Under the pieces are notes generated by a model, which worked only from the letters and a program-made list of their open reading frames with translations, was not told where the DNA came from and made no database searches. Made by a program: the position numbers and the translations under genes. Of a DNA stretch of 25,898 nt, positions 1-25,898 are shown in pieces. The DNA is taken from assembly GCA_937885075.1 (NCBI GenBank), contig CAKZYZ010000434.1, positions 1-25,898 of the forward strand, read 5' to 3'. The DNA comes from an uncultured bacterium (GTDB taxonomy: Bacteria; Auribacterota; Erginobacteria; Erginobacterales; Erginobacteraceae). Within the stretch, counting starts at the first letter, position 1. The number at the start of each line of letters is the position of its first letter.

Positions 1-74
1 CAATACCCCCTTGAGGGGTACGAAGAAAAACAAAGAAAACTATGGAATTTTCCTTTGTTTCTTCAAATTCCTTC

Positions 75-1800: not shown

Positions 1801-2989
1801 TATACTCCTCACATAACTTCACAAACTCATCGGCTAAATGATCCCACCGGTATTTCTCCTCCACCAGCTTCATCCCCTCCTCTCCCATCTTTTTTGAGAG
1901 TTCACGGTCGTCGATCAGAGTTTCAATCTTGCTCACCAGGTCATCCTCATCACCCGGCTGATAAAAGAGACCGGTCTTGCCATCCTCAATCACTTCCTCC
2001 AGCGCGGGGAGACGCGGCGCCACCACCGAGAGCCCGCAGGCCCAGTATTCAAACTCCTTCAATGTTACCCTCCCCCGGGCCGAGACAATATCCGGGAGGA
2101 TGACCAGTCCGATATCCCCGGCCGACATATACCGGGATACCTCAGCCTGGGTCAGCCAGCCGGAAAAGAAAAACGCGTCGGTCAATCCGGCTTCACCCAC
2201 CATCTTCTTAAGGGCCGGGATAGCTGTCCCTTCTCCAATAATCCAGAATGCCGTCCCCGGGCGTCCGGCGCAAAGCTTTTTCGCGGCACCGACCAGCAGT
2301 TCCGGTCCATCCTGAGGATCGATCACCCCCTGGAAGATCAAGACCGTATCCTTCCCGGAAGCATGCTCCCGACGTAGATCATCACTCTGATATCTCTTAA
2401 AGATCCCCAGGTCAACCCCGTCACAGATTACTTCAATTCTATCCGCCGAGGTCCCGTACTCCAGAATGATCTCTTTCATGGCCCGGCTGATGGTGATGAT
2501 CCGGTCCGATCCCCGGATCGCGGCCGCCTCCATCTTCCGTCCGAACCGCTGGACCACTCTCAGCCATCCCCCGGAAGAATAGTCATCAAGATACTCGAAG
2601 AGGACATCGGTCAGATTCAAAACCAGAAGCGGTTTACACCCGGAGAATCTCGCTCCCAGAAGCGCCCCGTACCCGGCGATGGTATTATGCGGAACTATCA
2701 GATCGGGCTTGAATCTCCGGATCGCCCGGATCAGCCGGAACATATTAACCGGATGGGCCAGAAGATACTTCTTCATCTTATGCGGGTCCAGCCGGCTGAC
2801 TGTCTTCAGCCTGACGATCTCAGAACAACCGAGATACTCTTTCGCCTCTTCATCGCTGCTCGCGACCCCGCCCGCCACGCAGACCTCATGCCCCTGCCGG
2901 GCAAAACCCTGGATAATATTGGATATCCGGGGGCTTCCGCCCCCGGAAAGTGGATAGAGTTCTTCGAATATTGTAACCAGTACTTTCAT
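1793..2989 (-). CDS. Glycosyltransferase family 4 (GT-B, group 1)
   Basis: 398 aa; GT4-type two-domain layout; C-terminal E-x7-E-like region (GLVILPDIVSARGRVTLKEFEYWACGLSVV...EEVIEDGKTGL); ATG 2989 with GGAG upstream; stop codon TAG lies inside the tail of repeat A2. Confidence 0.85.
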   Translation of the reverse strand: MKVLVTIFEELYPLSGGGSPRISNIIQGFARQGHEVCVAGGVASSDEEAKEYLGCSEIVRLKTVSRLDPHKMKKYLLAHPVNMFRLIRAIRRFKPDLIVPHNTIAGYGALLGARFSGCKPLLVLNLTDVLFEYLDDYSSGGWLRVVQRFGRKMEAAAIRGSDRIITISRAMKEIILEYGTSADRIEVICDGVDLGIFKRYQSDDLRREHASGKDTVLIFQGVIDPQDGPELLVGAAKKLCAGRPGTAFWIIGEGTAIPALKKMVGEAGLTDAFFFSGWLTQAEVSRYMSAGDIGLVILPDIVSARGRVTLKEFEYWACGLSVVAPRLPALEEVIEDGKTGLFYQPGDEDDLVSKIETLIDDRELSKKMGEEGMKLVEEKYRWDHLADEFVKLCEEYRT

Positions 2990-3881: not shown

Positions 3882-3990
3882 GGCAACTTTGCCTCTAAGG
3901 AAAGCATGAAATCAGGAGAATTTAAAGTAATCCTCCTCCTGCCTTCCTGCTTTCCTTAGAGGTTATTGAAATTCCGAAGCAGTAAATTCA
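3882..3990. repeat. Repeat family B copy (imperfect hairpin cctctaaggaaagcaggaaatcaggag/ctcctcctgccttcctgctttccttagagg + tail ttattgaaattccgaagcagtaaatt)
   Basis: Shared about 100-bp element also at 12887-12995 and 21862-21992. Confidence 0.85.
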
Positions 3991-4943
3991 TCTTTGTGGT
4001 CTGCTTTTAATCTACAGGTTATCGCGACACAGATTAATTCCGCGACGACAGACCATATCCTGATAAAAACCGCAAAAATAGTACCATACCCGACCGGAAT
4101 CGAAAAGAGCGATTCTAAAAGAACCACGATAGAGAGTTCCGCTATCCCCAGACCGGCGGGCGTAAGAGGACTTATCGTTCCCAGTATCCATGATACCGCC
4201 ATTATCCCGGAGAATAACAGCCAGGAATATGCCGGAAGAGGGTGGGCCGCGAAGATATCACCGGGCAGAATAGTCAGAAGAAGATAGGTTGCCGCCCCTT
4301 TAATCAGCCAGAGACCGCACCAGTAGAGTACCAGCAGGAGGATGGAAGAGTAGCGGAGATTTACTCTCATCTCGATATGCTCAACCTTGCGGAGGAACCA
4401 GTTGAGAACCGGTTGAAAGATCCGGGGATGGAGCAGGGCCAACCCGATCGGGACCAGGGCTACCAGCAGAATGACCAGCCGGGAATCTCCGGCCACTTCC
4501 AGGCTGGGCCAGAGCGGCAATGTAGCAAGAGCGACCAATACCCCCGAGACCGCCAGGATTATCAGCATCGCGCCGACACTGGCGAGAGTTATCAACCGCG
4601 GCACCCCCTTCTTCTCCAGCATCACCACCCGACCGACCGCGGTCCAGATCTTGCCGGGGATATACTTGGCCAGTTCGCTCAGATAATATACCCGGAGAAT
4701 CTCCCCGTGTGAGACCACCTGCCCCAGGGCCCTCAGGATAAATCCCCACCCCAGGGCTACCAGGAGTCCTCCCCCCACCGTCATAATCATCGATAGAGCC
4801 AGGAGCCAGCGGTTGGCCTGAAGAAGACTCCGGGAAAATGCCTGCCAGTCAAGATCGATCAGGTTAAGAACCAGGAAATATCCGATCGCCCCCAGAATAA
4901 CAACCTGAACTATCCTGAAAATATAATGTTTGGTTATCTTCAT
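3963..4943 (-). CDS. Flippase-like / UPF0104 (lysylphosphatidylglycerol-synthase TM region-type) polytopic membrane protein
   Basis: 326 aa, about 8 predicted TM helices; N-terminus typical of this family; no SD; last 10 codons (KDEFTASEFQ) plus TAA are encoded by repeat B1 tail. Confidence 0.6.
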   Translation of the reverse strand: MKITKHYIFRIVQVVILGAIGYFLVLNLIDLDWQAFSRSLLQANRWLLALSMIMTVGGGLLVALGWGFILRALGQVVSHGEILRVYYLSELAKYIPGKIWTAVGRVVMLEKKGVPRLITLASVGAMLIILAVSGVLVALATLPLWPSLEVAGDSRLVILLVALVPIGLALLHPRIFQPVLNWFLRKVEHIEMRVNLRYSSILLLVLYWCGLWLIKGAATYLLLTILPGDIFAAHPLPAYSWLLFSGIMAVSWILGTISPLTPAGLGIAELSIVVLLESLFSIPVGYGTIFAVFIRIWSVVAELICVAITCRLKADHKDEFTASEFQ

Positions 4944-4952
4944 TAAAAAATA

Positions 4953-5064
4953 GCCACAAAGGAGCTAAGACACTAAGGAAAATAAGATACGTAGTTATTG
5001 CACCTATAATTCTTTTCTTTGTGTCTTCGTGTCTTTGTGGCAAAAAAACTGCGAAACTAAGTTC
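4953..5064. repeat. Repeat family A copy
   Basis: gccacaaaggagctaagacactaagg...ttctttgtgtcttcgtgtctttgtggc + aaaaaaactgcgaaactaagttc; about 90% identical to 1677-1800. Confidence 0.85.
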
Positions 5065-5147
5065 TTTTAACGTTCTTCTGCTTCAACGTCACTATTTTTC
5101 AACGTCAGTTATTTTAACGTTATAATTTAGCGCCAAGACGCTAAAGT
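5065..5147. repeat. Repeat family D: three to four ~16-bp-periodic TTTTCAACGTC direct repeats + E-type hairpin
   Basis: cttcaacgtcac tatttttcaacgtcag ttattttaacgtt ... aatttagcgccaagacgctaaagt; same arrangement at 18003-18091. Confidence 0.8.
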
Positions 5148-6826
5148 GTAGAGTAATCGACATCCACCCGATCGGAATGGGGCGTAATCTTTTTCTCTAT
5201 CTTCACACCTCCCGATCCGCTTAATATTTCACTGAGGCGAGCCTCATCACCCACGGCCGGGCGCGTCGAGATCAATCCGTTGGTTTTTACTTCGACTTCA
5301 ATCATAGCCTTCAGAGACCCCTCTCCCACCTCACCGGATATCTCATCCACTATCTCTATCGACTCATCCTTAAAGGTGATCGTCCGATTCAGCCGCCGGG
5401 ACGAAGCCCGGCCGGAGACCGCCGTAAGCTGAAACGAGGCGTTCTTTCTCCGGCGGATAAAATCAATCCCCTTCTTCACTATCAGATATCCGCCGGGGAG
5501 GCTGCTTATTGATTTCAGTAAAAACCGTGCCAGAGGATGAGGAAAATAATAAGAACCTTCCCGGAAGGAAGCGGTAACTTTCATCTCTCCTTCATCGGAC
5601 CAGGAGACTGTATTATCCGGGCCAAGGCGGAAAGAACTCCGGGACTTTTGATCCTGGGCCGTCAGAGTGTAGCCCCGATCCTGAAAAGAGAGATCTCCCC
5701 CCTCCGAAAATACCTTTACCAACCCTCCCGACTTTCCGGCGGATACGGCGTAATACCGCGCGGTCTTCACCGCCGCCAGGCCGCTTTCGGGGAAGAACCT
5801 CCGGAAAGGGTCGCCCTTAAACGGCAACTCCCGCCGGTCCCGACCCCATATTCCCTCATTCTCCCGGTAATGATCGTATGCCAGCAGACCATTATAGAGA
5901 TGATAACACCGGCTCAGATCATCCTGAGCTAACTGTACCATGGCATTTCCCCGGGCGATGCCCGCGGAGAAAAGTGAGCGGGCCAGAGGGGAGAATTCTC
6001 CCATGATAGATCCCGCCAAAAGTGAGATATATGAGTTTCCGCAGAGGTTATATTCCCGCCCGGTGGTCAGATCAGGATGGACGAAGTAGGCGAGGAAGTC
6101 GAGAGCCCGGCCTAACGCGTCCTTCAGCCTTTCATCCCGACTGTGGAGATAACATTGAGAGAGGTATTCCAGAGTGAGGAAGGAGTAGCCGGTATCAACC
6201 CCTCCCAATTCGGGAAACCACCCCTCCCGGGTCTGACGATCCAGGACCAGCTTTACCTTTCTCTCCGCCTCTTCGCGAAACCGGTCTTCCCCCAGTGTTT
6301 CTCCCAGGCTGTAGAGGGCGGCAGCGCCCACGGCTTCGTGGTTGATCTTATCAAGATCATCATGCCGGCAGAGCCATCCGGCGGCTCCGGAAAGTGCCTT
6401 CTTTATAACCTCGTGATCTTTGGAGCTCAACTCTTCTCTCAGTAACAAGAAGGTCTCCGAGAGAGCGAAACCGGAGAAGGCGGTCGCGGCGAATCCATGC
6501 TCTCCCGCGTACCACTCATCGAACGATCCGTCGGAATGCTGGAGTGATGCCCAGAAGAGCGCCCCGGCAACCGCCAACTCCCTGATCTCCTCGCGGCCAC
6601 GGCAGCTCACCCCCGGATAATCATTCTTATAGAGCAAGGCCAGAGTATAAACCGCTTCCTGGCAGCGAGCATTAACATAATCACTGCTCTTACTCCGCCA
6701 GTACGGGTAATAAAAACACCCATAGGTCGGCGAGAGCTGATCCCGGTCAGCCAGTTCAACCAGATCCCGCGAGGCACCGGCCATTGGGGTTATATAATCA
6801 AATACTTCTGGATTAATACCATTCAT
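5141..6826 (-). CDS. Heparinase II/III-like / polysaccharide-lyase-fold protein (possible sugar epimerase or lyase of glycan clusters)
   Basis: 561 aa; alpha/alpha-toroid-like N-terminal half and beta-rich C-terminal half recalled from Hepar_II_III family; co-located with GT4 and acyltransferase; no SD, hairpin abuts ATG; stop TAG inside repeat D1 hairpin. Confidence 0.45.
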   Translation of the reverse strand: MNGINPEVFDYITPMAGASRDLVELADRDQLSPTYGCFYYPYWRSKSSDYVNARCQEAVYTLALLYKNDYPGVSCRGREEIRELAVAGALFWASLQHSDGSFDEWYAGEHGFAATAFSGFALSETFLLLREELSSKDHEVIKKALSGAAGWLCRHDDLDKINHEAVGAAALYSLGETLGEDRFREEAERKVKLVLDRQTREGWFPELGGVDTGYSFLTLEYLSQCYLHSRDERLKDALGRALDFLAYFVHPDLTTGREYNLCGNSYISLLAGSIMGEFSPLARSLFSAGIARGNAMVQLAQDDLSRCYHLYNGLLAYDHYRENEGIWGRDRRELPFKGDPFRRFFPESGLAAVKTARYYAVSAGKSGGLVKVFSEGGDLSFQDRGYTLTAQDQKSRSSFRLGPDNTVSWSDEGEMKVTASFREGSYYFPHPLARFLLKSISSLPGGYLIVKKGIDFIRRRKNASFQLTAVSGRASSRRLNRTITFKDESIEIVDEISGEVGEGSLKAMIEVEVKTNGLISTRPAVGDEARLSEILSGSGGVKIEKKITPHSDRVDVDYSTL

Positions 6827-13204: not shown

Positions 13205-14683
13205 CTACTCCTGCCTGGCGCCTGTCGCCTTAATCTCCTGATGGCTCTCCCGGTACTCGGTTAGAAGTTCGGAGAGTTTCATAATATCACCCTTGATCTT
13301 CTCCTCGTCCAGGGTGACAAACCGATAATCATCCTTCAGTATATTTCCGTTGGCGATAACCCAGCGGACTTCACTCCCGTCGGAGGCCCAGATCAGGTTC
13401 TCCACCACATTATCGATCCGGGTCGGGGTAAGGTTCGGCCGGCGGAGGTCGATCAGAATCAGGTCGGCGTCCTTACCCGCCGAGAGTGAACCGGCATTAA
13501 GCCGAAGCATCTTTGCCGGAACCACCGTCACCATCTCCAGAACCTGCTGTGCGGGGAGGGCGTGAGCATCCTTATGGAAAGCTTTCTGATATTGGGATGC
13601 CATCCTGGCCGCGCCTAACATATTCTGACTGTCAGCGGAGCCGGAACCATCGGTGGAGATGGCGACCGGGATCCCCAACTCCAGCATCTCCATCACCGGC
13701 GGCATACCAGATCCGAGTATGGTGTTGGCCAGGGGGTTATGCACTATGCTGGTTCCGGTCTCTTTCAGGACCACCAAGTCAACATCGGTGTTATTTACCT
13801 GGTGAGCCAGAATAGTATTCTCATCCAGCGCGCCGGCCTGATTCAGATATTCGACCGGACTGCAAAGATACTGGGAGTAGAACCAGGCCGTCGTGCCTGG
13901 CTCCTCAGAGCTGTGCATATGAAAGAGCGTGCCGTGGGCATTCGCCCAATCTTTGAGCACCTTGATCATCTCAGCGCTGTTGGAGAAGACCTGATCCGGC
14001 CCCGGAAGGATCCAGGTCCGTTCCCGATCCCCGAACTCGGCGGTATAGTCATCCAGCCTTTTCACCGCTTCTTCAGGAGTATCCAGGATACGGGGATCGT
14101 AGTTCCGGTCCTGTCCGCCGACAGCAATCATGATCTTGGTCCCGGCTTCCGCGTTCGCCTCCACCAGTTCCGCCACGTGGTACTTATTAAAATTACAGTG
14201 GTGGGTCAGGGCGGAGGTGATCCCATAATAGATGTCATCCAGCTTGGCCTTGGTATAGGTGATCAGGTTGGCGGAGACCCCGAACTCAGCGGTCAGTTCA
14301 TCCTTATTCTCATTCAAAAACCCGGTGAAGACATTGACCGCGTGGTCGAGCCAGTCGGTCAGGGGTTCGTCCTTGGCGATCCCGATTATCGGAGACTCAT
14401 GATCGTGTCCGTGCGCCTTGATAAATCCGGGGAGTACCACCCCATCCAGGCAGGGGATATCTCCCTCGACCAAGCCTCCTTCTTTCTCCAGACCGATAAC
14501 CTGGAGATCGTCTCCGCATTCCCGGATAATTCTCTCCCCGATCCCGGATTCATACTTCCCGACTTCCTTGATCAGACTCCCCTCGGTCAGAACATACCCA
14601 TCCTCAATCCGGGTCGAAAGACCCAACTTCTCATCCATCGGTAACAGCAGACGGCTCCGGACAAGTTTAAACTTCTTTTTCAT
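13205..14683 (-). CDS. Amidohydrolase-superfamily metal-dependent hydrolase (chlorohydrolase/deaminase-like)
   Basis: 492 aa; HxH-type motif (AHGHDHE) and overall amidohydrolase layout; GGAG RBS; hairpin E directly 5' of RBS. Confidence 0.7.
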   Translation of the reverse strand: MKKKFKLVRSRLLLPMDEKLGLSTRIEDGYVLTEGSLIKEVGKYESGIGERIIRECGDDLQVIGLEKEGGLVEGDIPCLDGVVLPGFIKAHGHDHESPIIGIAKDEPLTDWLDHAVNVFTGFLNENKDELTAEFGVSANLITYTKAKLDDIYYGITSALTHHCNFNKYHVAELVEANAEAGTKIMIAVGGQDRNYDPRILDTPEEAVKRLDDYTAEFGDRERTWILPGPDQVFSNSAEMIKVLKDWANAHGTLFHMHSSEEPGTTAWFYSQYLCSPVEYLNQAGALDENTILAHQVNNTDVDLVVLKETGTSIVHNPLANTILGSGMPPVMEMLELGIPVAISTDGSGSADSQNMLGAARMASQYQKAFHKDAHALPAQQVLEMVTVVPAKMLRLNAGSLSAGKDADLILIDLRRPNLTPTRIDNVVENLIWASDGSEVRWVIANGNILKDDYRFVTLDEEKIKGDIMKLSELLTEYRESHQEIKATGARQE

Positions 14684-14696
14684 ATTTTCTCCTTAT

Positions 14697-14730
14697 AAAT
14701 CAGCGGGTTCTAGCTGATTTAGTTTTGAAC
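14697..14730. repeat. Family E hairpin with compensatory stem change + 'agttttgaac', 5' of amidohydrolase RBS
   Basis: aaatCagcgggttctagctGatttagttttgaac; the T->C / A->G change preserves pairing relative to copy 8396. Confidence 0.75.
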
Positions 14731-14897
14731 CAAGTCCAACATAATTATGTCAGAACAGTGCCAATAGTTATTTTAATAATTCCGGCGATACTTTTATTCG
14801 CCTTATGACCGCAAAAACAATGCTACATAAATACCTTAATATATTCAATAGTTTGTTGCCGCTTTCTTCGGGCAAACGGATAAATCGAAAAAATTTA

Positions 14898-14926
14898 TTC
14901 ACTTGATTTCCCCACCGGCTTATAGT
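14898..14926 (+). promoter_or_regulatory. Candidate sigma70 promoter for the FG-GAP/yjbQ unit
   Basis: TTCACT-N17-TATAGT; implies an about 110-nt leader. Confidence 0.4.
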
Positions 14927-15044
14927 ATTTTTAACATACTCATACCGTATAGAGCCTTCAGATTACGGAAGAGGAGATCAGGTAACGAAATTTATCATAG
15001 CTATCAGGGATCTATACCTTCCCTGAACTAAAATGGAGAAAAAT

Positions 15045-16115
15045 ATGAAGAAAGCTGTTTTCGCCGTCGCCGGCGCCGTCTTCTTGCTTCTATCGGGAAC
15101 CGTCCTTTTGGCCGATAACTTTTCCGGGAGTGATGATTTCAATGATAATAATATTAATCTAAGTAAGTGGGATGATACCATGGGAGGCTTTGGTGATTTA
15201 ACCGAGGCAAATCAGCTCTTGGAACTGGATCTTGACGGGGGCGGCTCCTCCCCGCAGGGGCATCTTCCCTGGAAATTAAACTACGGATCATATACCCAGG
15301 ATTGGGAAGTATATTATGATATTAATGTCCCAACCTTCACTCAATTTTCCGGAGATGAAGCCTCCTCGATGAGCATATTTATCTATGCCCTGCCGATGGG
15401 AACCGGTGGCTATATCGGTATGACCCTGGGACAGGAAACCGGCAGCAGCCCCTCCCGGAAATTTATGGCGAACATGTCCACCCTCTCTGATACTACTGAA
15501 GCTGAAATCATGACCACATCCACCGAATCTTCCGTGAGAATTCACTGGGACGCCTCCAGCACCACGCTTTATTGTGACTATGATTCCGATGGGGGGAGTG
15601 ACAGCTGGACCAATCTGAAGTCCTGGAACATCGCCCCCGGCCAACCATATTCCTGGAATATGACAACTGGAAGCACTTTTATTTGCTTTTTGATCGGGCA
15701 AGCGGAAATAACTCATGGGGGGGAGACTAACCCCTCCGGAGATAATTTTGTAGCCAACAGCACACCGCCGACCGCGCCTCTGGCGATTTTCCGGCCCGGC
15801 AGCGGGCTCTGGGCCCTCCGGAACATTACCCGGGCTTACTTCGGCGGGTCCAGTGATATCCCGGTTTACTCCGACTATGACGGCGACGGGACCAAGGATA
15901 TCGCGATCTTCCGGGGTTCTACCGGGCTCTGGGCGCTCCGGGGGATAACCCGGGCCTACTTCGGGGGCGGCTCCGATGAACCCATACCGGGCGATTACAA
16001 CGATGACGGCAGCGCCGATATCGCGATCTTCCGGGAATCCACCGGACTCTGGGCGGTCCGCGGACTGACCCGGGGTTACTTCGGCGCCACCGGAGATATT
16101 CCTCTGGAGCCATAA
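15045..16115 (+). CDS. Secreted protein: degenerate concanavalin-like/GH16-like N-terminal domain plus 3 FG-GAP/VCBS-type repeats
   Basis: Signal peptide MKKAVFAVAGAVFLLLSGTVLLA; 'DDFNDNNINLSKW' and 'ELDLDG' resemble the GH16/ConA-like fold but lack ExDxxE; three about 40-aa tandem repeats (DYDGDGxxDIAIFRxSTGLWA-R). Table start 15033; ATG at 15045 has GGAG at -6. Confidence 0.7.
   Translation: MKKAVFAVAGAVFLLLSGTVLLADNFSGSDDFNDNNINLSKWDDTMGGFGDLTEANQLLELDLDGGGSSPQGHLPWKLNYGSYTQDWEVYYDINVPTFTQFSGDEASSMSIFIYALPMGTGGYIGMTLGQETGSSPSRKFMANMSTLSDTTEAEIMTTSTESSVRIHWDASSTTLYCDYDSDGGSDSWTNLKSWNIAPGQPYSWNMTTGSTFICFLIGQAEITHGGETNPSGDNFVANSTPPTAPLAIFRPGSGLWALRNITRAYFGGSSDIPVYSDYDGDGTKDIAIFRGSTGLWALRGITRAYFGGGSDEPIPGDYNDDGSADIAIFRESTGLWAVRGLTRGYFGATGDIPLEP
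15757..16112 (+). repeat. Intragenic ~120-nt coding tandem repeat x3 (FG-GAP modules)
   Basis: ctctgggc(g/c)ctccgg...acccgggc(c/t)tacttcgg...gatatcgcgatcttccgg recurs three times. Confidence 0.8.
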
Positions 16116-22305: not shown

Positions 22306-23532
22306 ATGAGATCCATCCTGATAAAAAATGCCCAACTGAGAGATCGGAAAACCCCGGTTGACATTCTGATCGAGCAGGGGAAATTTAGCAAAATCGAGCC
22401 CCAACTGACGGCGACCGCCGATGAATTCATTGATGCCGCGGGGGCTCTGGTAACCCCTACTTTCATTGACCCCCATCTTCATATAGATAAAGCCTATACC
22501 GCTCTCTCCGGACGATTGAGCCGGAGGGAGACTCTGGAAGAGTCCATCGAAATCATGCAGGAGATCAAGCGGAATTACACCGTTGACGATGTCCGGCAGC
22601 GGGCGGTCCGGGCTATTAAAGATTCGGTTAAATACGGAGTAACCAAAATCCGGGGTGACGTGGATATTGACACCATCGGCGGACTGACCGCCCTGGAAGG
22701 ATGCCTCCAGGCCCGGGAAGAGACCAGGGATATCGCCGACGTGGAACTGGTCGCGTTTCCCCAGGAAGGAATCTTCCGGGATCCGGGAACCGAAGAATTG
22801 ATGTGGCAAGCGATGGAGATGGGGGCGGACGTGGTCGGCGGCATGCCGGCGGCGGAATGGATCATGGCTGAAGCCAGAAGACATGTCGACCTGGTCTTTG
22901 CCATCGCCCGGAAGTTCGATGCCGACATTGACATGCATATCGATCAGACCAAGGATCCCTGCGCCCAGTCCCTGGAATATTCCGCCTGGCTCAGCATAAA
23001 AAACGGCTATCAGGGCCGGGTAACCGGGGGACACTGCACCTCCCTGGCATATCAGACCGATGCCCACGCCCATAAGGTGATCGAACTGCTCAAATATGCC
23101 AACTTCAATATCTGCATTAACCCCCAGGTCCTGGCCATTATGGGGGTGGATGCGGAACCCCGGACCCGGGGACTGACCCGGGTGCGGGAACTGGTGGCTG
23201 CCGGGGTTAACGTGGCTACCGCCCAGGATACCATCTGCGACGGGTTCCATATCTTCGGAACCGGGGATCCCCTCGACTACGGGATGCTGATGGCCTACCA
23301 GGCCCAGTACAACTCCACCGAAAAAGTTAAAATTGTTTATGATATGATTACGGAAAATGCGGCCCGGCTGATGCGAATCGAAAATTATGGGATATCGGTC
23401 GGTAATCCCGCCGATTTTAATATCATCTACGCGCCCAATGAAGCCGAGGCTTTTCGCACCCGTCCGAAACGTCTGGTTTTTAAAAACGGAAAATTGATCG
23501 CCCGGGGAGAGAAGCGGACGGAACTACTCTGA
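22306..23532 (+). CDS. Cytosine deaminase-like amidohydrolase
   Basis: N-terminus 'PTFIDPHLHIDKAYT' parallels E. coli CodA 'PFVEPHIHLDTTQT'. Table start 22303 is TTG; the ATG at 22306 has GGAG upstream; divergent from the nucleoside transporter operon. Confidence 0.72.
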   Translation: MRSILIKNAQLRDRKTPVDILIEQGKFSKIEPQLTATADEFIDAAGALVTPTFIDPHLHIDKAYTALSGRLSRRETLEESIEIMQEIKRNYTVDDVRQRAVRAIKDSVKYGVTKIRGDVDIDTIGGLTALEGCLQAREETRDIADVELVAFPQEGIFRDPGTEELMWQAMEMGADVVGGMPAAEWIMAEARRHVDLVFAIARKFDADIDMHIDQTKDPCAQSLEYSAWLSIKNGYQGRVTGGHCTSLAYQTDAHAHKVIELLKYANFNICINPQVLAIMGVDAEPRTRGLTRVRELVAAGVNVATAQDTICDGFHIFGTGDPLDYGMLMAYQAQYNSTEKVKIVYDMITENAARLMRIENYGISVGNPADFNIIYAPNEAEAFRTRPKRLVFKNGKLIARGEKRTELL

Positions 23533-23561
23533 TAAAACAACGGATTAATTTGTTGTTTTAT
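23533..23561. terminator. AT-rich hairpin (ataaaacaac ... gttgttttat) between the convergent deaminase and FAD-oxidoreductase genes
   Basis: 10-bp stem; stop codons of both genes flank it. Confidence 0.4.
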
Positions 23562-24691
23562 TAGAGGATCTTCTCCACCAGGTTCTTCACGTACCTCCCG
23601 ATCGCCGGGGCGGCGGTCAGGCCGGGGGACTCGATGCCGATCAGGTTTATCAGTCCCGGCAGGCCCCGGTCTTCTTCGTGATGGATAACGAAGTCCCGCT
23701 CCGCCTCTCCCTTCCGGTAGAGCTTGGGGCGGATCCCGGCCATATCAGGGGAGAGATTATCTCTCTGCAATTCCGGAAGATACTTTTCCGCGCCGCGGAA
23801 GAAATCCTCCCGATGCTGTTCGTCCACGGTATAGTCGACCTCATCCACATAGAAAGCGCTCGGACCGATCTTCATCCCGCCCTGAAGATCCACCACCGTG
23901 TGGAGGCCCAGACTGATCTCGGTCGGGGGGGGATAAACCAGATTGCTGAATAAGGCCCCCTCCGTCCCCCCGACCCGGAAGTACTCGCCCTTGCAGGGAT
24001 AGATCCTGTAACCGGCGGCGGCGGTATCGATCCCGGCCATTATCGCCACTCTCTCCGCCCCCAATCCGGCCGCGTTCACGACTACCCGGCTGAAAAACTC
24101 ATACTCCTCCCCGTCGGCATCACGGATCACTACCCGATAACCTTCCCCCTTCTTTTTGAGGGCGATAAGTTCACAGTTATACGCGAATGTCGTATCGCAG
24201 GAGGCCTTCTTCTCCAGGTAGGCCATCAGGCGATGGCTGTCGATAATACCGGTCCCGGAGGACCAGAGGCCCCCTTCCGCCCGCACCCGGGGCTCAATCG
24301 CCCGCACCTCGCCGCGGGAAAGAAGACGAAGCCCCTCAACTCCGTTCTCTTCCGCCCGCTCCTTCAGCGCCGCGATAACCGGGAGATCTCCCTTCTCGAT
24401 AGCGATGATAAGCTTACCGCATTTACGGAACGGAATATCCACCCGGGGACAGAGTTCGTAAAGAATCCGGCGCCCTTCGGTACAGAGCCGGGTCTTATGA
24501 AAATCCCTTGAGTAATAGATCCCGGCGTGGATCACCTCGCTGTTCCGGCTACTCGACTCCCGGCCGAACCCGTCATGCCGTTCCACCGCGATAATCTCCC
24601 TCCCCCCCCCGCTCAGCTCCGCCGCGACCGCCAGCCCCACCACCCCCACCCCAATAATAGCAACATCAACCTTTTCCAATTTATTCTCCAT
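23561..24691 (-). CDS. FAD-dependent oxidoreductase (L-2-hydroxyglutarate oxidase/LhgO-like)
   Basis: N-terminal dinucleotide-binding GxGxxG (VAIIGVGVVGLAVA); 376 aa; no SD. Confidence 0.7.
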   Translation of the reverse strand: MENKLEKVDVAIIGVGVVGLAVAAELSGGGREIIAVERHDGFGRESSSRNSEVIHAGIYYSRDFHKTRLCTEGRRILYELCPRVDIPFRKCGKLIIAIEKGDLPVIAALKERAEENGVEGLRLLSRGEVRAIEPRVRAEGGLWSSGTGIIDSHRLMAYLEKKASCDTTFAYNCELIALKKKGEGYRVVIRDADGEEYEFFSRVVVNAAGLGAERVAIMAGIDTAAAGYRIYPCKGEYFRVGGTEGALFSNLVYPPPTEISLGLHTVVDLQGGMKIGPSAFYVDEVDYTVDEQHREDFFRGAEKYLPELQRDNLSPDMAGIRPKLYRKGEAERDFVIHHEEDRGLPGLINLIGIESPGLTAAPAIGRYVKNLVEKIL

Positions 24692-24696
24692 TTTTA

Positions 24697-24829
24697 GGGG
24701 TCAAGTCTACTTATTGCTTAACTTTATATTTAAATTCTTCCCTGATCGGGTATATTTATAGGGGTCAAGTCTACTCATTGTTTAACTTTATATTTGAATT
24801 CCTTCCCTGATCGGGTATATATTTATCGT
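24697..24829. repeat. Two tandem ~64-bp direct repeats between the FAD-oxidoreductase and RayT-like genes
   Basis: ggggtcaagtctacttattgcttaactttatatttaaattcttccctgatcgggtatatttata (24697-24760), then a second copy (24761-~24829) with 4 substitutions and small indels. Confidence 0.85.
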
Positions 24830-24878
24830 TCGATTATATTAACAATTAAAACCAATATATCAAGGAGTCTTAAATACG

Positions 24879-25808
24879 ATGTCTCGACCCCTGAGAATTC
24901 AGTACCCCGGTGCCTGGTACCATATAATGAACCGTGGCGGCCATCATCGAAATATTTTCAGCAATGAGAATGATCGACTGGAATTTTTACGATTGCTAAA
25001 GGAAACGATTGAGATGTGGGAGATAGAGGTGCATGCTTATTCATTGCTGGATACGCATTATCATCTTCTAATCCATACACCCCTGGGCAACCTTTCCCGG
25101 GCAATGAGGCATATCGGCGGAGTTTATACTCAACGTTATAACATTCGTCATGATACTGATGGTCAACTATTTCGGGGAAGATATAAATCAATCCTGGTAG
25201 ATAAAGATAATTATCTGCTGGAAGTAGTGAGATATATTCACCTGCAAGGAGTTCGGGCAGGGATAATAAGTCAGCCTGAAGATGATATCTGGTCATCTTA
25301 TCGGGCATATTTATTCCAGCAGGATAGCTTGACCTGGTTAAGCACCGGGAAAATACTCAGTATTTTTAACAGGAACCGCTCGGCCGCAAGAAAACGACTG
25401 ATTGAATTTATCAGCAATGGTATCTCTCCCGGTATCAAAGAATTCTATTCCAAAGAAAGGCTATCTCCAGTGTTGGGTTCTAAAGAGTTTATTAAAAATA
25501 TCAAGGATACTTACATAATTCCGGAAGCGCCTTTCTATGAAATCCCGGATAGTAAAGTCAAAAATGGCCACAGCACAATAACTATGATAAATAAAATAGT
25601 CTGTGAGCAATATCTCATCTCACAAAAATCCTTGCTGGAAGTATCCAGGGGAATTCACAATGAACCACGGGATATCGCGGTATATTTAGCCCGGCAAGAG
25701 GGGAAATATTCTTTGAATGAAATTGCTGATAGTTACGGTTTCTCAAGTTATTCCGGAGTTAATTCAACCATCAGGAGAATTAAACATCGCTTAAAAACAG
25801 ACAAGAAC
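24879..25808 (+). CDS. RayT-like (COG1943) HUH Y1 tyrosine transposase fused to DnaA-C-like HTH; 3'-truncated by adapter at contig end
   Basis: N-terminus 'RPLRIQYPGAWYHIMNRG' and HUH motif 'THYHLLIHTP' typical of IS200-like/REP-associated Y1 transposases. C-terminal 'IAVYLARQEGKYSLNEIADSYGFSSYSGV' resembles the DnaA C-terminal HTH. AAGGAG RBS. ORF continues into adapter-derived sequence (25809 onward), so the true end is unknown. Confidence 0.7.
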
Positions 25809-25885
25809 AGATCGGAAGAGCGTCGTGTAGGGAAAGAGTGTAGATCTCGGTGGTCGCCGGAGCATTAAAAAAAAAAAAGAAAAAA
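25809..25885. other. Sequencing artefact: Illumina TruSeq universal adapter (reverse complement) followed by poly-A
   Basis: 25809-25859 = AGATCGGAAGAGCGTCGTGTAGGGAAAGAGTGTAGATCTCGGTGGTCGCCG, a 51/51 match to the revcomp of the TruSeq universal adapter. Then 'gagcatt' (adapter has TATCATT), then A12 G A6. Confidence 0.93.
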
Positions 25886-25898
25886 CTGAATGTTAGAT

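What the first reader, a model, noticed from the sequence alone, without database searches (positions are those of the whole stretch)
25809..25885. Contig 3' end is Illumina TruSeq adapter + poly-A; the RayT-like ORF's C-terminus is an artefact
Positions 25809-25859 match the reverse complement of the TruSeq universal adapter exactly (AGATCGGAAGAGCGTCGTGTAGGGAAAGAGTGTAGATCTCGGTGGTCGCCG). A degenerate remainder and A12-G-A6 follow. The translated adapter gives '...SEERRVGKECRSRWSP...', a peptide I recognise as a recurrent contaminant in hypothetical proteins. So the ORF 24879..25868 really ends (is truncated) at or before 25808, and any annotation or protein-family assignment built on its last about 20 aa would be wrong. 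It also suggests the assembly broke inside or next to a repeat or transposase, as expected for a repeat-rich genome.
Basis: seen in the sequence. Interest (0 to 1): 0.7.

Follow-up and report, generated by a model that had tools for sequence, protein, structure and literature searches.

The report
Sequencing adapter at contig end
The last 90 bases of this contig are a leftover Illumina sequencing adapter plus read-through junk, not genome. They give a truncated transposase-like gene a false 19-residue tail and a false stop codon, which is a common and well-known assembly artefact.

Summary
Window 25809-25866 is the reverse complement of the 58-nt TruSeq universal adapter: 51 bases exact, then T52G and T54G, 56/58 in all. 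A12-G-A6 and 13 unassignable bases follow to the contig end. Three related loci align up to 25807/25808 and lose all similarity exactly there.

The 329-aa ORF is genuine only for aa 1-310. Its last 19 residues (RSEERRVGKECRSRWSPEH) and its TAA stop are synthetic. Relatives are 322-326 aa, so about 12-16 real residues are missing. Both Pfam domains (Y1_Tnp, and Bac_DnaA_C ending at aa 301) are complete and unaffected.

The same layout (adapter pointing outward, about 11 A, junk) recurs at the ends of at least 111 public genome contigs. The adapter peptide ends thousands of unrelated predicted proteins.

The gene is best filed as a TIRYT, a tyrosine transposase associated with terminal inverted repeats. 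In relatives it is single-copy and syntenic, and a non-palindromic 27-nt repeat flanks it in inverted orientation. The window holds two tandem upstream copies. The downstream copy would lie about 93 nt past the junction.

As biology the finding is an artefact of low interest.

The parts
25809..25866 (+). Reverse complement of the 58-nt Illumina TruSeq universal (P5-side) adapter. 51 nt are exact, then T52G and T54G. The leading A corresponds to the A-tail/T-overhang ligation base.
   Evidence: 56/58 identity, 0 matches in 100 shuffles; its first 33 nt are listed as a sequencing adapter to be trimmed in PMC8263000.
25867..25885 (+). A12-G-A6 read-through beyond the end of the adapter.
   Evidence: In public contigs carrying the same adapter, 90 of 91 tails have a poly-A run directly after ...ATCATT. 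The run length peaks at 10-13, median 11.
25886..25898 (+). 13 unassignable bases (CTGAATGTTAGAT) at the contig end, most likely low-quality base calls from the end of one read.
   Evidence: No adapter seed matches them. The public examples end in similar A-rich, non-repeating junk.
25866..25868 (+). Artefactual TAA stop codon, made of the last T of the adapter and two A of the poly-A run.
24879..25808 (+). Genuine part of the coding sequence, aa 1-310, truncated at the 3' end. It encodes a Y1 HUH tyrosine transposase-like protein with a C-terminal DnaA domain IV-like helix-turn-helix (TIRYT / TnpA_REP subclass 2.1 type).
   Evidence: 93% identity to P0001 and 82% to P0002/P0003 over all 310 aa. 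DNA similarity stops at 25807/25808.
24912..25247 (+). Y1_Tnp (IS200-like HUH) domain, aa 12-123. The HUH motif H60-Y61-H62 is at 25056-25064 and the conserved Tyr119 at 25233-25235.
   Evidence: E 3.4e-11. Invariant columns H60, Y61, H62, R118, Y119 in alignment A1.
25581..25781 (+). Bac_DnaA_C helix-turn-helix domain, aa 235-301. It is complete (profile positions 2-69 of 69) and lies wholly upstream of the adapter.
   Evidence: E 2.8e-08, above the gathering score; aligns to E. coli DnaA domain IV, PDB 1J1V, E 0.0015.
24696..24722 (+). Distal upstream copy of the 27-nt terminal-inverted-repeat motif AGGGGTCAAGTCTACTTATTGCTTAAC. It lies 4 nt from the start codon of the divergent DAO gene.
   Evidence: 0 mismatches, 0 expected by chance; relatives carry one copy upstream (+) and one downstream (-) of the gene.
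24760..24786 (+). Proximal upstream copy of the motif (2 mismatches). It is part of a 64-nt tandem duplication (24690-24742 / 24754-24806) that the 82% relatives lack.
   Evidence: The duplication is also present in an independent public assembly, L133, 99.84% identical.

Best explanation
The last 90 bases of the contig (25809-25898) are technical sequence, most likely carried in by one or a few untrimmed reads.

The likely sequence of events is as follows. A DNA fragment shorter than the read length ended at window 25808. It then read the oligo-T linker of the flow-cell primer as about 10-12 A, and ended in noise. The assembler used this read to extend a contig end.

As a result the real gene loses its last 12-16 codons and its stop. 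This gene is a single-copy, syntenic TIRYT-type Y1 tyrosine transposase homologue with a DnaA-like helix-turn-helix. In place of its true end it gains 19 adapter-encoded residues and an adapter/poly-A-derived TAA, so a gene caller reports a complete 329-aa protein.

Shown here: the adapter identity, the exact point where homology is lost, the completeness of both domains, and the recurrence of the same signature in public data. Inferred: the read-level history (single read, Read 2, short insert, flow-cell linker) and low coverage as the reason the adapter tip survived.
For: - Adapter: 56/58 identity, 51 nt exact, 0 matches in shuffles.
- Loss of homology: protein alignment A1 and DNA alignment A2 with L001 (93% aa), L002 and L006 (82% aa) are collinear to 25807/25808. 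The relatives then continue ...KLS.TI..LI..* while the window reads RSEERR....
- Family length is 322-332 aa.
- Domain calls are identical with and without the tail.
114 of 117 occurrences lie within 200 nt of a contig end and point outward. 90 of 91 are followed by poly-A with median length 11. The same T52G error occurs in 6 of the 12 variant copies.
- The adapter peptide ends unrelated proteins: 7897 of the 8000 scored candidates pass E<=10, and 11 of 12 inspected proteins end in RSEERRVGKECRSRWSPYH (the twelfth carries RSEERRVGKECRSRWSP internally).
- The literature states that Illumina adapter contamination of assemblies is well documented (PMC13182109).
Against: There are no reads, so coverage, soft-clipping and the number of supporting reads cannot be seen. 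The last genuine base is uncertain by one position: 25808 is C where all three relatives have A (Asn310 against Lys). This could be a real substitution or an end-of-fragment error. The exact true continuation could not be retrieved.
Confidence: 0.97

Rival explanations
1. The assembly stopped here mainly because of a repeat (the transposase-like gene or its flanking 27-nt repeat). On this view the adapter is only incidental decoration of a repeat-induced break.
For: - The 27-nt motif is dispersed in related metagenome contigs: 15 stretches, 13 of them without the gene.
- The contig of the closest relative (L001, Logan assembly) starts 4 nt after the aligned position of the upstream motif.
- An independent public assembly of the same population (L133, 99.84% identical) ends 25 nt into this gene.
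Against: - Four metagenome contigs and one MAG contig of 82% relatives run straight through the gene and both repeats.
- The gene is single-copy in the window and syntenic, with neighbours at 76-90% aa identity.
- The contig leaves genuine sequence about 93 nt before the expected downstream repeat, not at it.
- The repeat is only about 27-30 nt, shorter than the usual final k-mers.
- L133 is a 1.9-kb fragment broken at both ends, which points to low coverage rather than a repeat.
Confidence: 0.2
2. The adapter marks an internal chimeric join, and the bases after the poly-A run (25886-25898) are genuine DNA from another fragment. The contig would then be a misjoin rather than simply ending in junk.
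For: A few public examples have further sequence behind the adapter: L075, L084 (with a P7 oligo) and L059 (followed by a scaffold gap).
Against: Only 13 bases follow, and they match nothing in the window or in the relatives' downstream region. 114 of 117 public cases are terminal like this one.
Confidence: 0.02
3. The 58-nt stretch is genuine genomic DNA that happens to resemble the adapter.
For: None.
Against: 51 exact bases give 0 matches in shuffles. Orthologous loci lose similarity exactly at the junction. The adapter is followed by the stereotyped poly-A signature seen at unrelated contig ends across phyla.
Confidence: 0.001

Closest known systems
Untrimmed Illumina TruSeq universal-adapter read-through at contig ends (adapter contamination of public assemblies and of proteins predicted from them)
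   Same: The oligo is the same (56/58). It has the same outward orientation at the contig terminus and the same poly-A run of about 11 nt followed by junk. The same RSEERRVGKECRSRWSP(Y/E)H peptide is fused to the C-terminus of a real protein (PMC13182109).
   Different: Nothing essential differs. Two base-call errors in the last 7 adapter bases turn ...SPYH into ...SPEH.
TIRYT / TIRtron (Di Nocera et al. 2013, PMC3733652), which is TnpA_REP subclass 2.1 with a Bac_DnaA_C or HTH C-terminal domain (Quentin et al. 2018, PMC6006769)
   Same: It has a Y1 HUH domain with HUH and Tyr conserved. It is longer than RAYTs and carries a C-terminal DnaA-like helix-turn-helix. Non-palindromic inverted repeats flank it, starting with a GGGG-rich motif (GGGGTCAA against the consensus GGGGWSAS). 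The repeat family is moderately dispersed elsewhere.
   Different: In the window only the upstream repeat is present, as a tandem pair, because the contig ends before the downstream one. The last position of the 8-nt motif is A rather than S. The repeats abut or overlap the 5' ends of the two neighbouring genes. No activity is known.
Canonical RAYT / TnpA_REP with palindromic GTAG-tagged REPs (E. coli, Pseudomonas)
   Same: It is related to the HUH Y1 fold family and is single-copy. It sits in a conserved position between diverged relatives and is flanked by inverted copies of a short dispersed repeat.
   Different: The NCBIfam REP_Tyr_transpos score is 49.8, below the cut-off of 80. The repeat does not fold into a hairpin (z-scores -0.8 to +0.9). 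The protein has an extra DnaA_C domain.

Membership tests
Illumina TruSeq universal-adapter read-through artefact | Near-identity to the reverse complement of the 58-nt universal adapter | tested here: met
   56/58 identity with 51 nt exact, and 0 matches in 100 shuffles.
Illumina TruSeq universal-adapter read-through artefact | Located at a contig terminus, pointing outward, followed by a short poly-A run and non-reproducible bases | tested here: met
   The adapter ends 32 nt before the window end and A12-G-A6 plus 13 nt follow. The same layout is seen in 114 of 117 public occurrences, and 90 of 91 have poly-A.
Illumina TruSeq universal-adapter read-through artefact | Orthologous sequence from other sources loses similarity exactly at the junction | tested here: met
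   DNA alignment A2 and protein alignment A1.
Illumina TruSeq universal-adapter read-through artefact | Supported only by reads whose insert is shorter than the read, with soft-clipping and a coverage drop at the junction | not testable with these tools
   No reads are available.
TIRYT / TnpA_REP subclass 2.1 | Y1 HUH transposase domain with conserved HUH and catalytic Tyr | tested here: met
   Pfam Y1_Tnp E 3.4e-11. H60-Y61-H62 and Y119 are invariant among 12 homologues.
TIRYT / TnpA_REP subclass 2.1 | C-terminal helix-turn-helix extension (Bac_DnaA_C, HTH_23 or HTH_28) | tested here: met
   Bac_DnaA_C at aa 235-301, 34.1 bits against a cut-off of 31.5. PDB 1J1V DnaA domain IV matches at E 0.0015. 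The definition is from PMC6006769.
TIRYT / TnpA_REP subclass 2.1 | Gene flanked by terminal inverted repeats that are not REP hairpins | tested here: inconclusive
   The feature is met in relatives L002-L006: 26/27 identity over the 27-mer (29/30 when the next 3 nt are included), with the upstream copy on + and the downstream copy on -. No hairpin is predicted. In the window only the upstream copies exist, because the contig ends about 93 nt before the expected downstream copy.
TIRYT / TnpA_REP subclass 2.1 | Repeat carries the GGGGWSAS motif (shared by many but not all TIRYT repeats) | tested here: inconclusive
   GGGGTCAA fits 7 of 8 positions. A dispersed variant, GGGGTCAC at L122:283, fits 8 of 8 (consensus from PMC3733652).
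Canonical RAYT (NCBIfam NF047646 REP_Tyr_transpos) | Score at or above the curated equivalog cut-off | tested here: not met
   49.8 bits against a cut-off of 80.
Canonical RAYT (NCBIfam NF047646 REP_Tyr_transpos) | Flanking repeats are palindromic REPs that form stem-loops | tested here: not met
   Folding the repeat units on either strand gives energies no better than shuffles.
IS200/IS605 insertion sequence | Multi-copy mobile unit found in varying genomic positions | tested here: not met
   There is one copy in the 25.9-kb window. The position between the DAO and PMT_2/TPR genes is the same in relatives whose neighbours are 76-90% identical. Whole genomes were not available.

The most novel reading that the evidence does not exclude
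Nothing novel remains in the flagged 90 bases. The most novel reading still open concerns the gene they damage.

Its 27-nt non-palindromic repeat is dispersed in related genomes. In some contigs, same-orientation copies bracket segments of about 3 kb that carry toxin-antitoxin or defence-like genes and are present or absent between strains. The TIRYT, through its DnaA-like domain, might recognise these repeats and take part in cassette gain or loss. That would make it a repeat-bounded cassette system run by a domesticated HUH enzyme.
Probability: 0.08. Interest if true: 0.5.

Novelty: not a real feature. Interest (0 to 1): 0.08.

Why it matters
The value is practical, not biological. Positions 25809-25898 should be trimmed and the CDS marked as 3'-partial, ending at 25808. 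A complete-looking 329-aa protein with a synthetic tail would otherwise enter databases, as thousands already have.

An adapter at one contig end also shows that this assembly was made from incompletely trimmed reads. Its other contig ends therefore deserve the same screen.

The false tail happens to restore a family-typical length, so length-based quality checks would not catch it.

Tried and rejected
- An exact look-up of the 329-aa ORF in the public gene index found nothing.
- Exact scans for the 43 nt just before the junction found nothing in metagenome contigs or genome contigs. The true continuation from the same organism could therefore not be recovered.
- An independent assembly of the same population (L133, GCA_011041085.1) covers only window 23042-24903 and stops 25 nt into the gene.
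- A literature search for the adapter peptide string found no paper.
A duplicated 43-aa construct was used instead.
- Is the 326-aa ORF at 3963..4943 a second copy of the gene? No. It shows no similarity and is an LPG_synthase_TM protein.
- Is the flanking repeat a REP-type hairpin? No structure beyond shuffles was found.
- Is the 64-nt spacing of the two upstream copies CRISPR-like? Rejected, because the 'spacer' is duplicated too, so it is a tandem duplication.
- A PDB sequence search gave only DnaA domain IV and no hit for the HUH half.
- I did not determine the organism's taxonomy.

Full report
**1. The observation**

The end of the window reads ...GACAAGAAC | AGATCGGAAGAGCGTCGTGTAGGGAAAGAGTGTAGATCTCGGTGGTCGCCG GAGCATT | AAAAAAAAAAAA G AAAAAA | CTGAATGTTAGAT. 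A scripted comparison with standard Illumina oligos finds one hit. It is the reverse complement of the 58-nt TruSeq universal adapter at 25809-25866. The first 51 bases are exact and there are two substitutions (T52G, T54G) in the last seven. The pattern search gives one match with up to 3 mismatches and none in 100 dinucleotide-preserving shuffles. No seed of the indexed adapter, Nextera or P7 occurs anywhere else, and the 5' end of the window is clean.

**2. Effect on the ORF**

ORF 24879..25868 (329 aa) ends ...RLKTDKN-RSEERRVGKECRSRWSPEH*. The adapter begins exactly at codon 311. The TAA stop is built from the adapter's last T and two A of the poly-A run, so the tail and the stop are both synthetic.

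**3. Where genuine sequence ends**

A database search with aa 1-310 finds 5984 relatives at E<=1e-10, nearly all 313-332 aa long. The closest are P0001 (93% identity, 322 aa) and P0002/P0003 (82%, 326 aa). In the protein alignment the window follows them to ...RLKTDK. The relatives then continue K-L-S-x-T-I-x-x-L-I... for 12-16 residues while the window switches to the adapter peptide.

The DNA alignment with their loci (L001, L002, L006) is collinear to GACAAGAA (25800-25807) and unrelated afterwards. Base 25808 is C where all three relatives have A. It is either a real Lys-to-Asn change or an end-of-fragment error, so the junction is known to within one base. The real protein therefore lacks about 12-16 residues and should be annotated as 3'-partial.

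**4. Does the false tail distort annotation?**

It does not distort the domain calls. Pfam gives Y1_Tnp (aa 12-123, E 3.4e-11) and Bac_DnaA_C (aa 235-301, covering profile positions 2-69 of 69, E 2.8e-08). The scores are practically identical with the tail included.

The harm is subtler. The 19 false residues replace 12-16 real ones, so the ORF looks complete and has a family-typical length.

**5. Is this a recurrent artefact?**

The 117 occurrences in them show the following:

- 114 lie within 200 nt of a contig end and point outward.
- 92 continue with the full TATCATT.
- 90 of 91 with enough tail are followed directly by poly-A.
- The A-run length peaks sharply at 10-13 (median 11), and the window has 12.
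- The commonest variant of the last seven bases is the same T52G seen here.

The fixed A-run length fits what I know of flow-cell primers, which carry an oligo-T linker 5' of the P5 sequence. That point rests on my own knowledge and was not tested. The same applies to assigning this adapter strand to Read 2 read-through.

In 34 of the 117 cases at least 60 codons are open upstream in the adapter's open frame. A search of the 5.8-billion-protein collection with the adapter peptide returned 7897 proteins at E<=10 among the 8000 candidates that were scored, so this is a lower bound. Of twelve inspected, eleven end in ...RSEERRVGKECRSRWSPYH after unrelated N-terminal parts (the twelfth, P0121, carries RSEERRVGKECRSRWSP internally), several with unrelated Pfam domains.

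The string is listed as an adapter to be trimmed in methods sections (for example PMC8263000). A 2026 survey states that Illumina adapter contamination of assemblies is well documented (PMC13182109).

**6. What the gene really is**

The N-terminal half is an IS200-like HUH Y1 domain. The HUH motif (H60-Y61-H62) and Tyr119 are invariant among homologues. The C-terminal part aligns with DnaA domain IV (PDB 1J1V). The NCBIfam model for canonical REP-associated tyrosine transposases scores 49.8 bits, below its cut-off of 80.

In the 82% relatives the gene is flanked by an inverted pair of a 27-30-nt sequence, AGGGGTCAAGTCTACTT(A/T)TTGCTTAAC. One copy lies about 100 nt upstream and one about 41 nt after the stop. 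The sequence does not fold into a hairpin on either strand.

This matches the published TIRYT/TIRtron class. Those are RAYT-like genes flanked by terminal inverted repeats instead of REPs, many sharing the motif GGGGWSAS (Di Nocera 2013, PMC3733652). It also matches TnpA_REP subclass 2.1, defined by a C-terminal Bac_DnaA_C or HTH domain (Quentin 2018, PMC6006769). Here the motif is GGGGTCAA, a 7/8 fit.

The window carries two tandem upstream copies (24696-24722 and 24760-24786), which are part of a 64-nt duplication. An independent public assembly that is 99.84% identical has the same duplication, so it is real. The downstream copy would lie about 93 nt beyond the adapter junction, by transfer from L002 and L001.

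**7. Genomic context**

The rest of the window is ordinary chromosomal DNA. It encodes a radical SAM/B12 enzyme, glycosyltransferases, UDP-GlcNAc 2-epimerase, amidohydrolases, an ABC transporter and a FAD oxidoreductase.

Three anchors are shared with L002-L006. They are epimerase-amidohydrolase (90% aa identity), the DAO oxidoreductase (76%) directly upstream, and the TIRYT gene (82%). In those contigs a PMT_2/TPR gene follows. The gene is therefore single-copy, vertically inherited and in a fixed position, as described for domesticated RAYTs. It does not behave as an active insertion sequence.

**8. Why did the contig end here?**

Against this: five contigs of relatives cross the gene and both repeats. 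The repeat is only about 30 nt. The window leaves genuine sequence about 93 nt before the expected repeat rather than at it.

For this: the motif is dispersed in related genomes. The L001 contig of the closest relative starts 4 nt after the aligned position of the upstream repeat. The independent assembly of this same population stops 25 nt into the gene, although that contig is a 1.9-kb fragment broken at both ends.

My inference is that local coverage was low, the contig would have ended nearby anyway, and an untrimmed read added 90 nt of junk. I give the repeat about a 0.2 chance of being the main cause. Only the reads or the assembly graph can settle this.

**9. Verdict**

The finding is correct, and it is an artefact. 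It is not a biological feature, it is already well known as a class, and its interest is low. The useful actions are to trim 25809-25898, flag the CDS as 3'-partial and screen the rest of the assembly.

The only biologically interesting material is incidental: the TIRYT gene and its dispersed repeat family, listed under things noticed in passing.

Noticed in passing
window 24696-24722 and 24760-24786; L118-L132: The 27-nt repeat that flanks the TIRYT gene is a dispersed family in related metagenome contigs. There are 15 stretches with an exact match, 13 of them without the gene, and at least 9 different flank contexts, mostly intergenic and next to gene ends or starts.
   Followed up: partly
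L124:122-3086 compared with L127:5240-5392 and 4586-5274: Two same-orientation copies of the repeat bracket a 2.9-kb segment carrying ORFs (L124 1039..1944 and 1913..2536, minus strand) whose translations read to me like an AbiEii-type nucleotidyltransferase toxin and an AbiEi-type antitoxin; this label is from inspection only, no family search was run. The segment is absent from another contig, in which left flank, one repeat and right flank join exactly. This is a cassette-like insertion/deletion bounded by direct repeat copies. L122 has three tandem units of about 250 nt, at least one of which starts with a repeat variant (L122:283); L122 and L126 each hold two same-orientation copies.
   Followed up: partly
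window 24690-24806: There is a 64-nt tandem duplication of the upstream repeat plus adjacent sequence (53 nt at 89% identity). The 82% relatives lack it, but an independent public assembly of the same population (L133, DRDP01000448.1 of GCA_011041085.1, 99.84% identical over 1862 nt) has it.
   Followed up: partly
L002:11014-11049 and window 24691-24722: Both inverted repeat copies sit right at the 5' ends of the divergently oriented neighbouring genes. The upstream copy ends 4 nt from the DAO start codon. The downstream copy overlaps the first codons of the called PMT_2/TPR gene (read by eye as MAEVKQKVDLTP...), where a T-to-A change removes the TAA that the other copies contain.
   Followed up: no
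P0151: One adapter-tailed public protein also starts with MCSSDL. I recognise this from memory as the translation of the other TruSeq adapter arm (...GTGTGCTCTTCCGATCT), which would mean a short contig with adapters at both ends translated as one protein. This was not tested.
   Followed up: no
window 1-25: The window begins with a short palindrome, TACCCCCTTGAGGGGTA (positions 4-20). It shares CTTGA/GGGG-type bases with the repeat core but is not a copy of it.
   Followed up: no
window 13205-16115 and 23561-25808 compared with L002: Synteny with the 82% relatives holds at both flanks (epimerase-amidohydrolase, DAO-TIRYT). The middle differs: the window has a Bmp-type ABC transporter and a second amidohydrolase where L002 has YjbQ and two Lcl_C proteins.
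   Followed up: no
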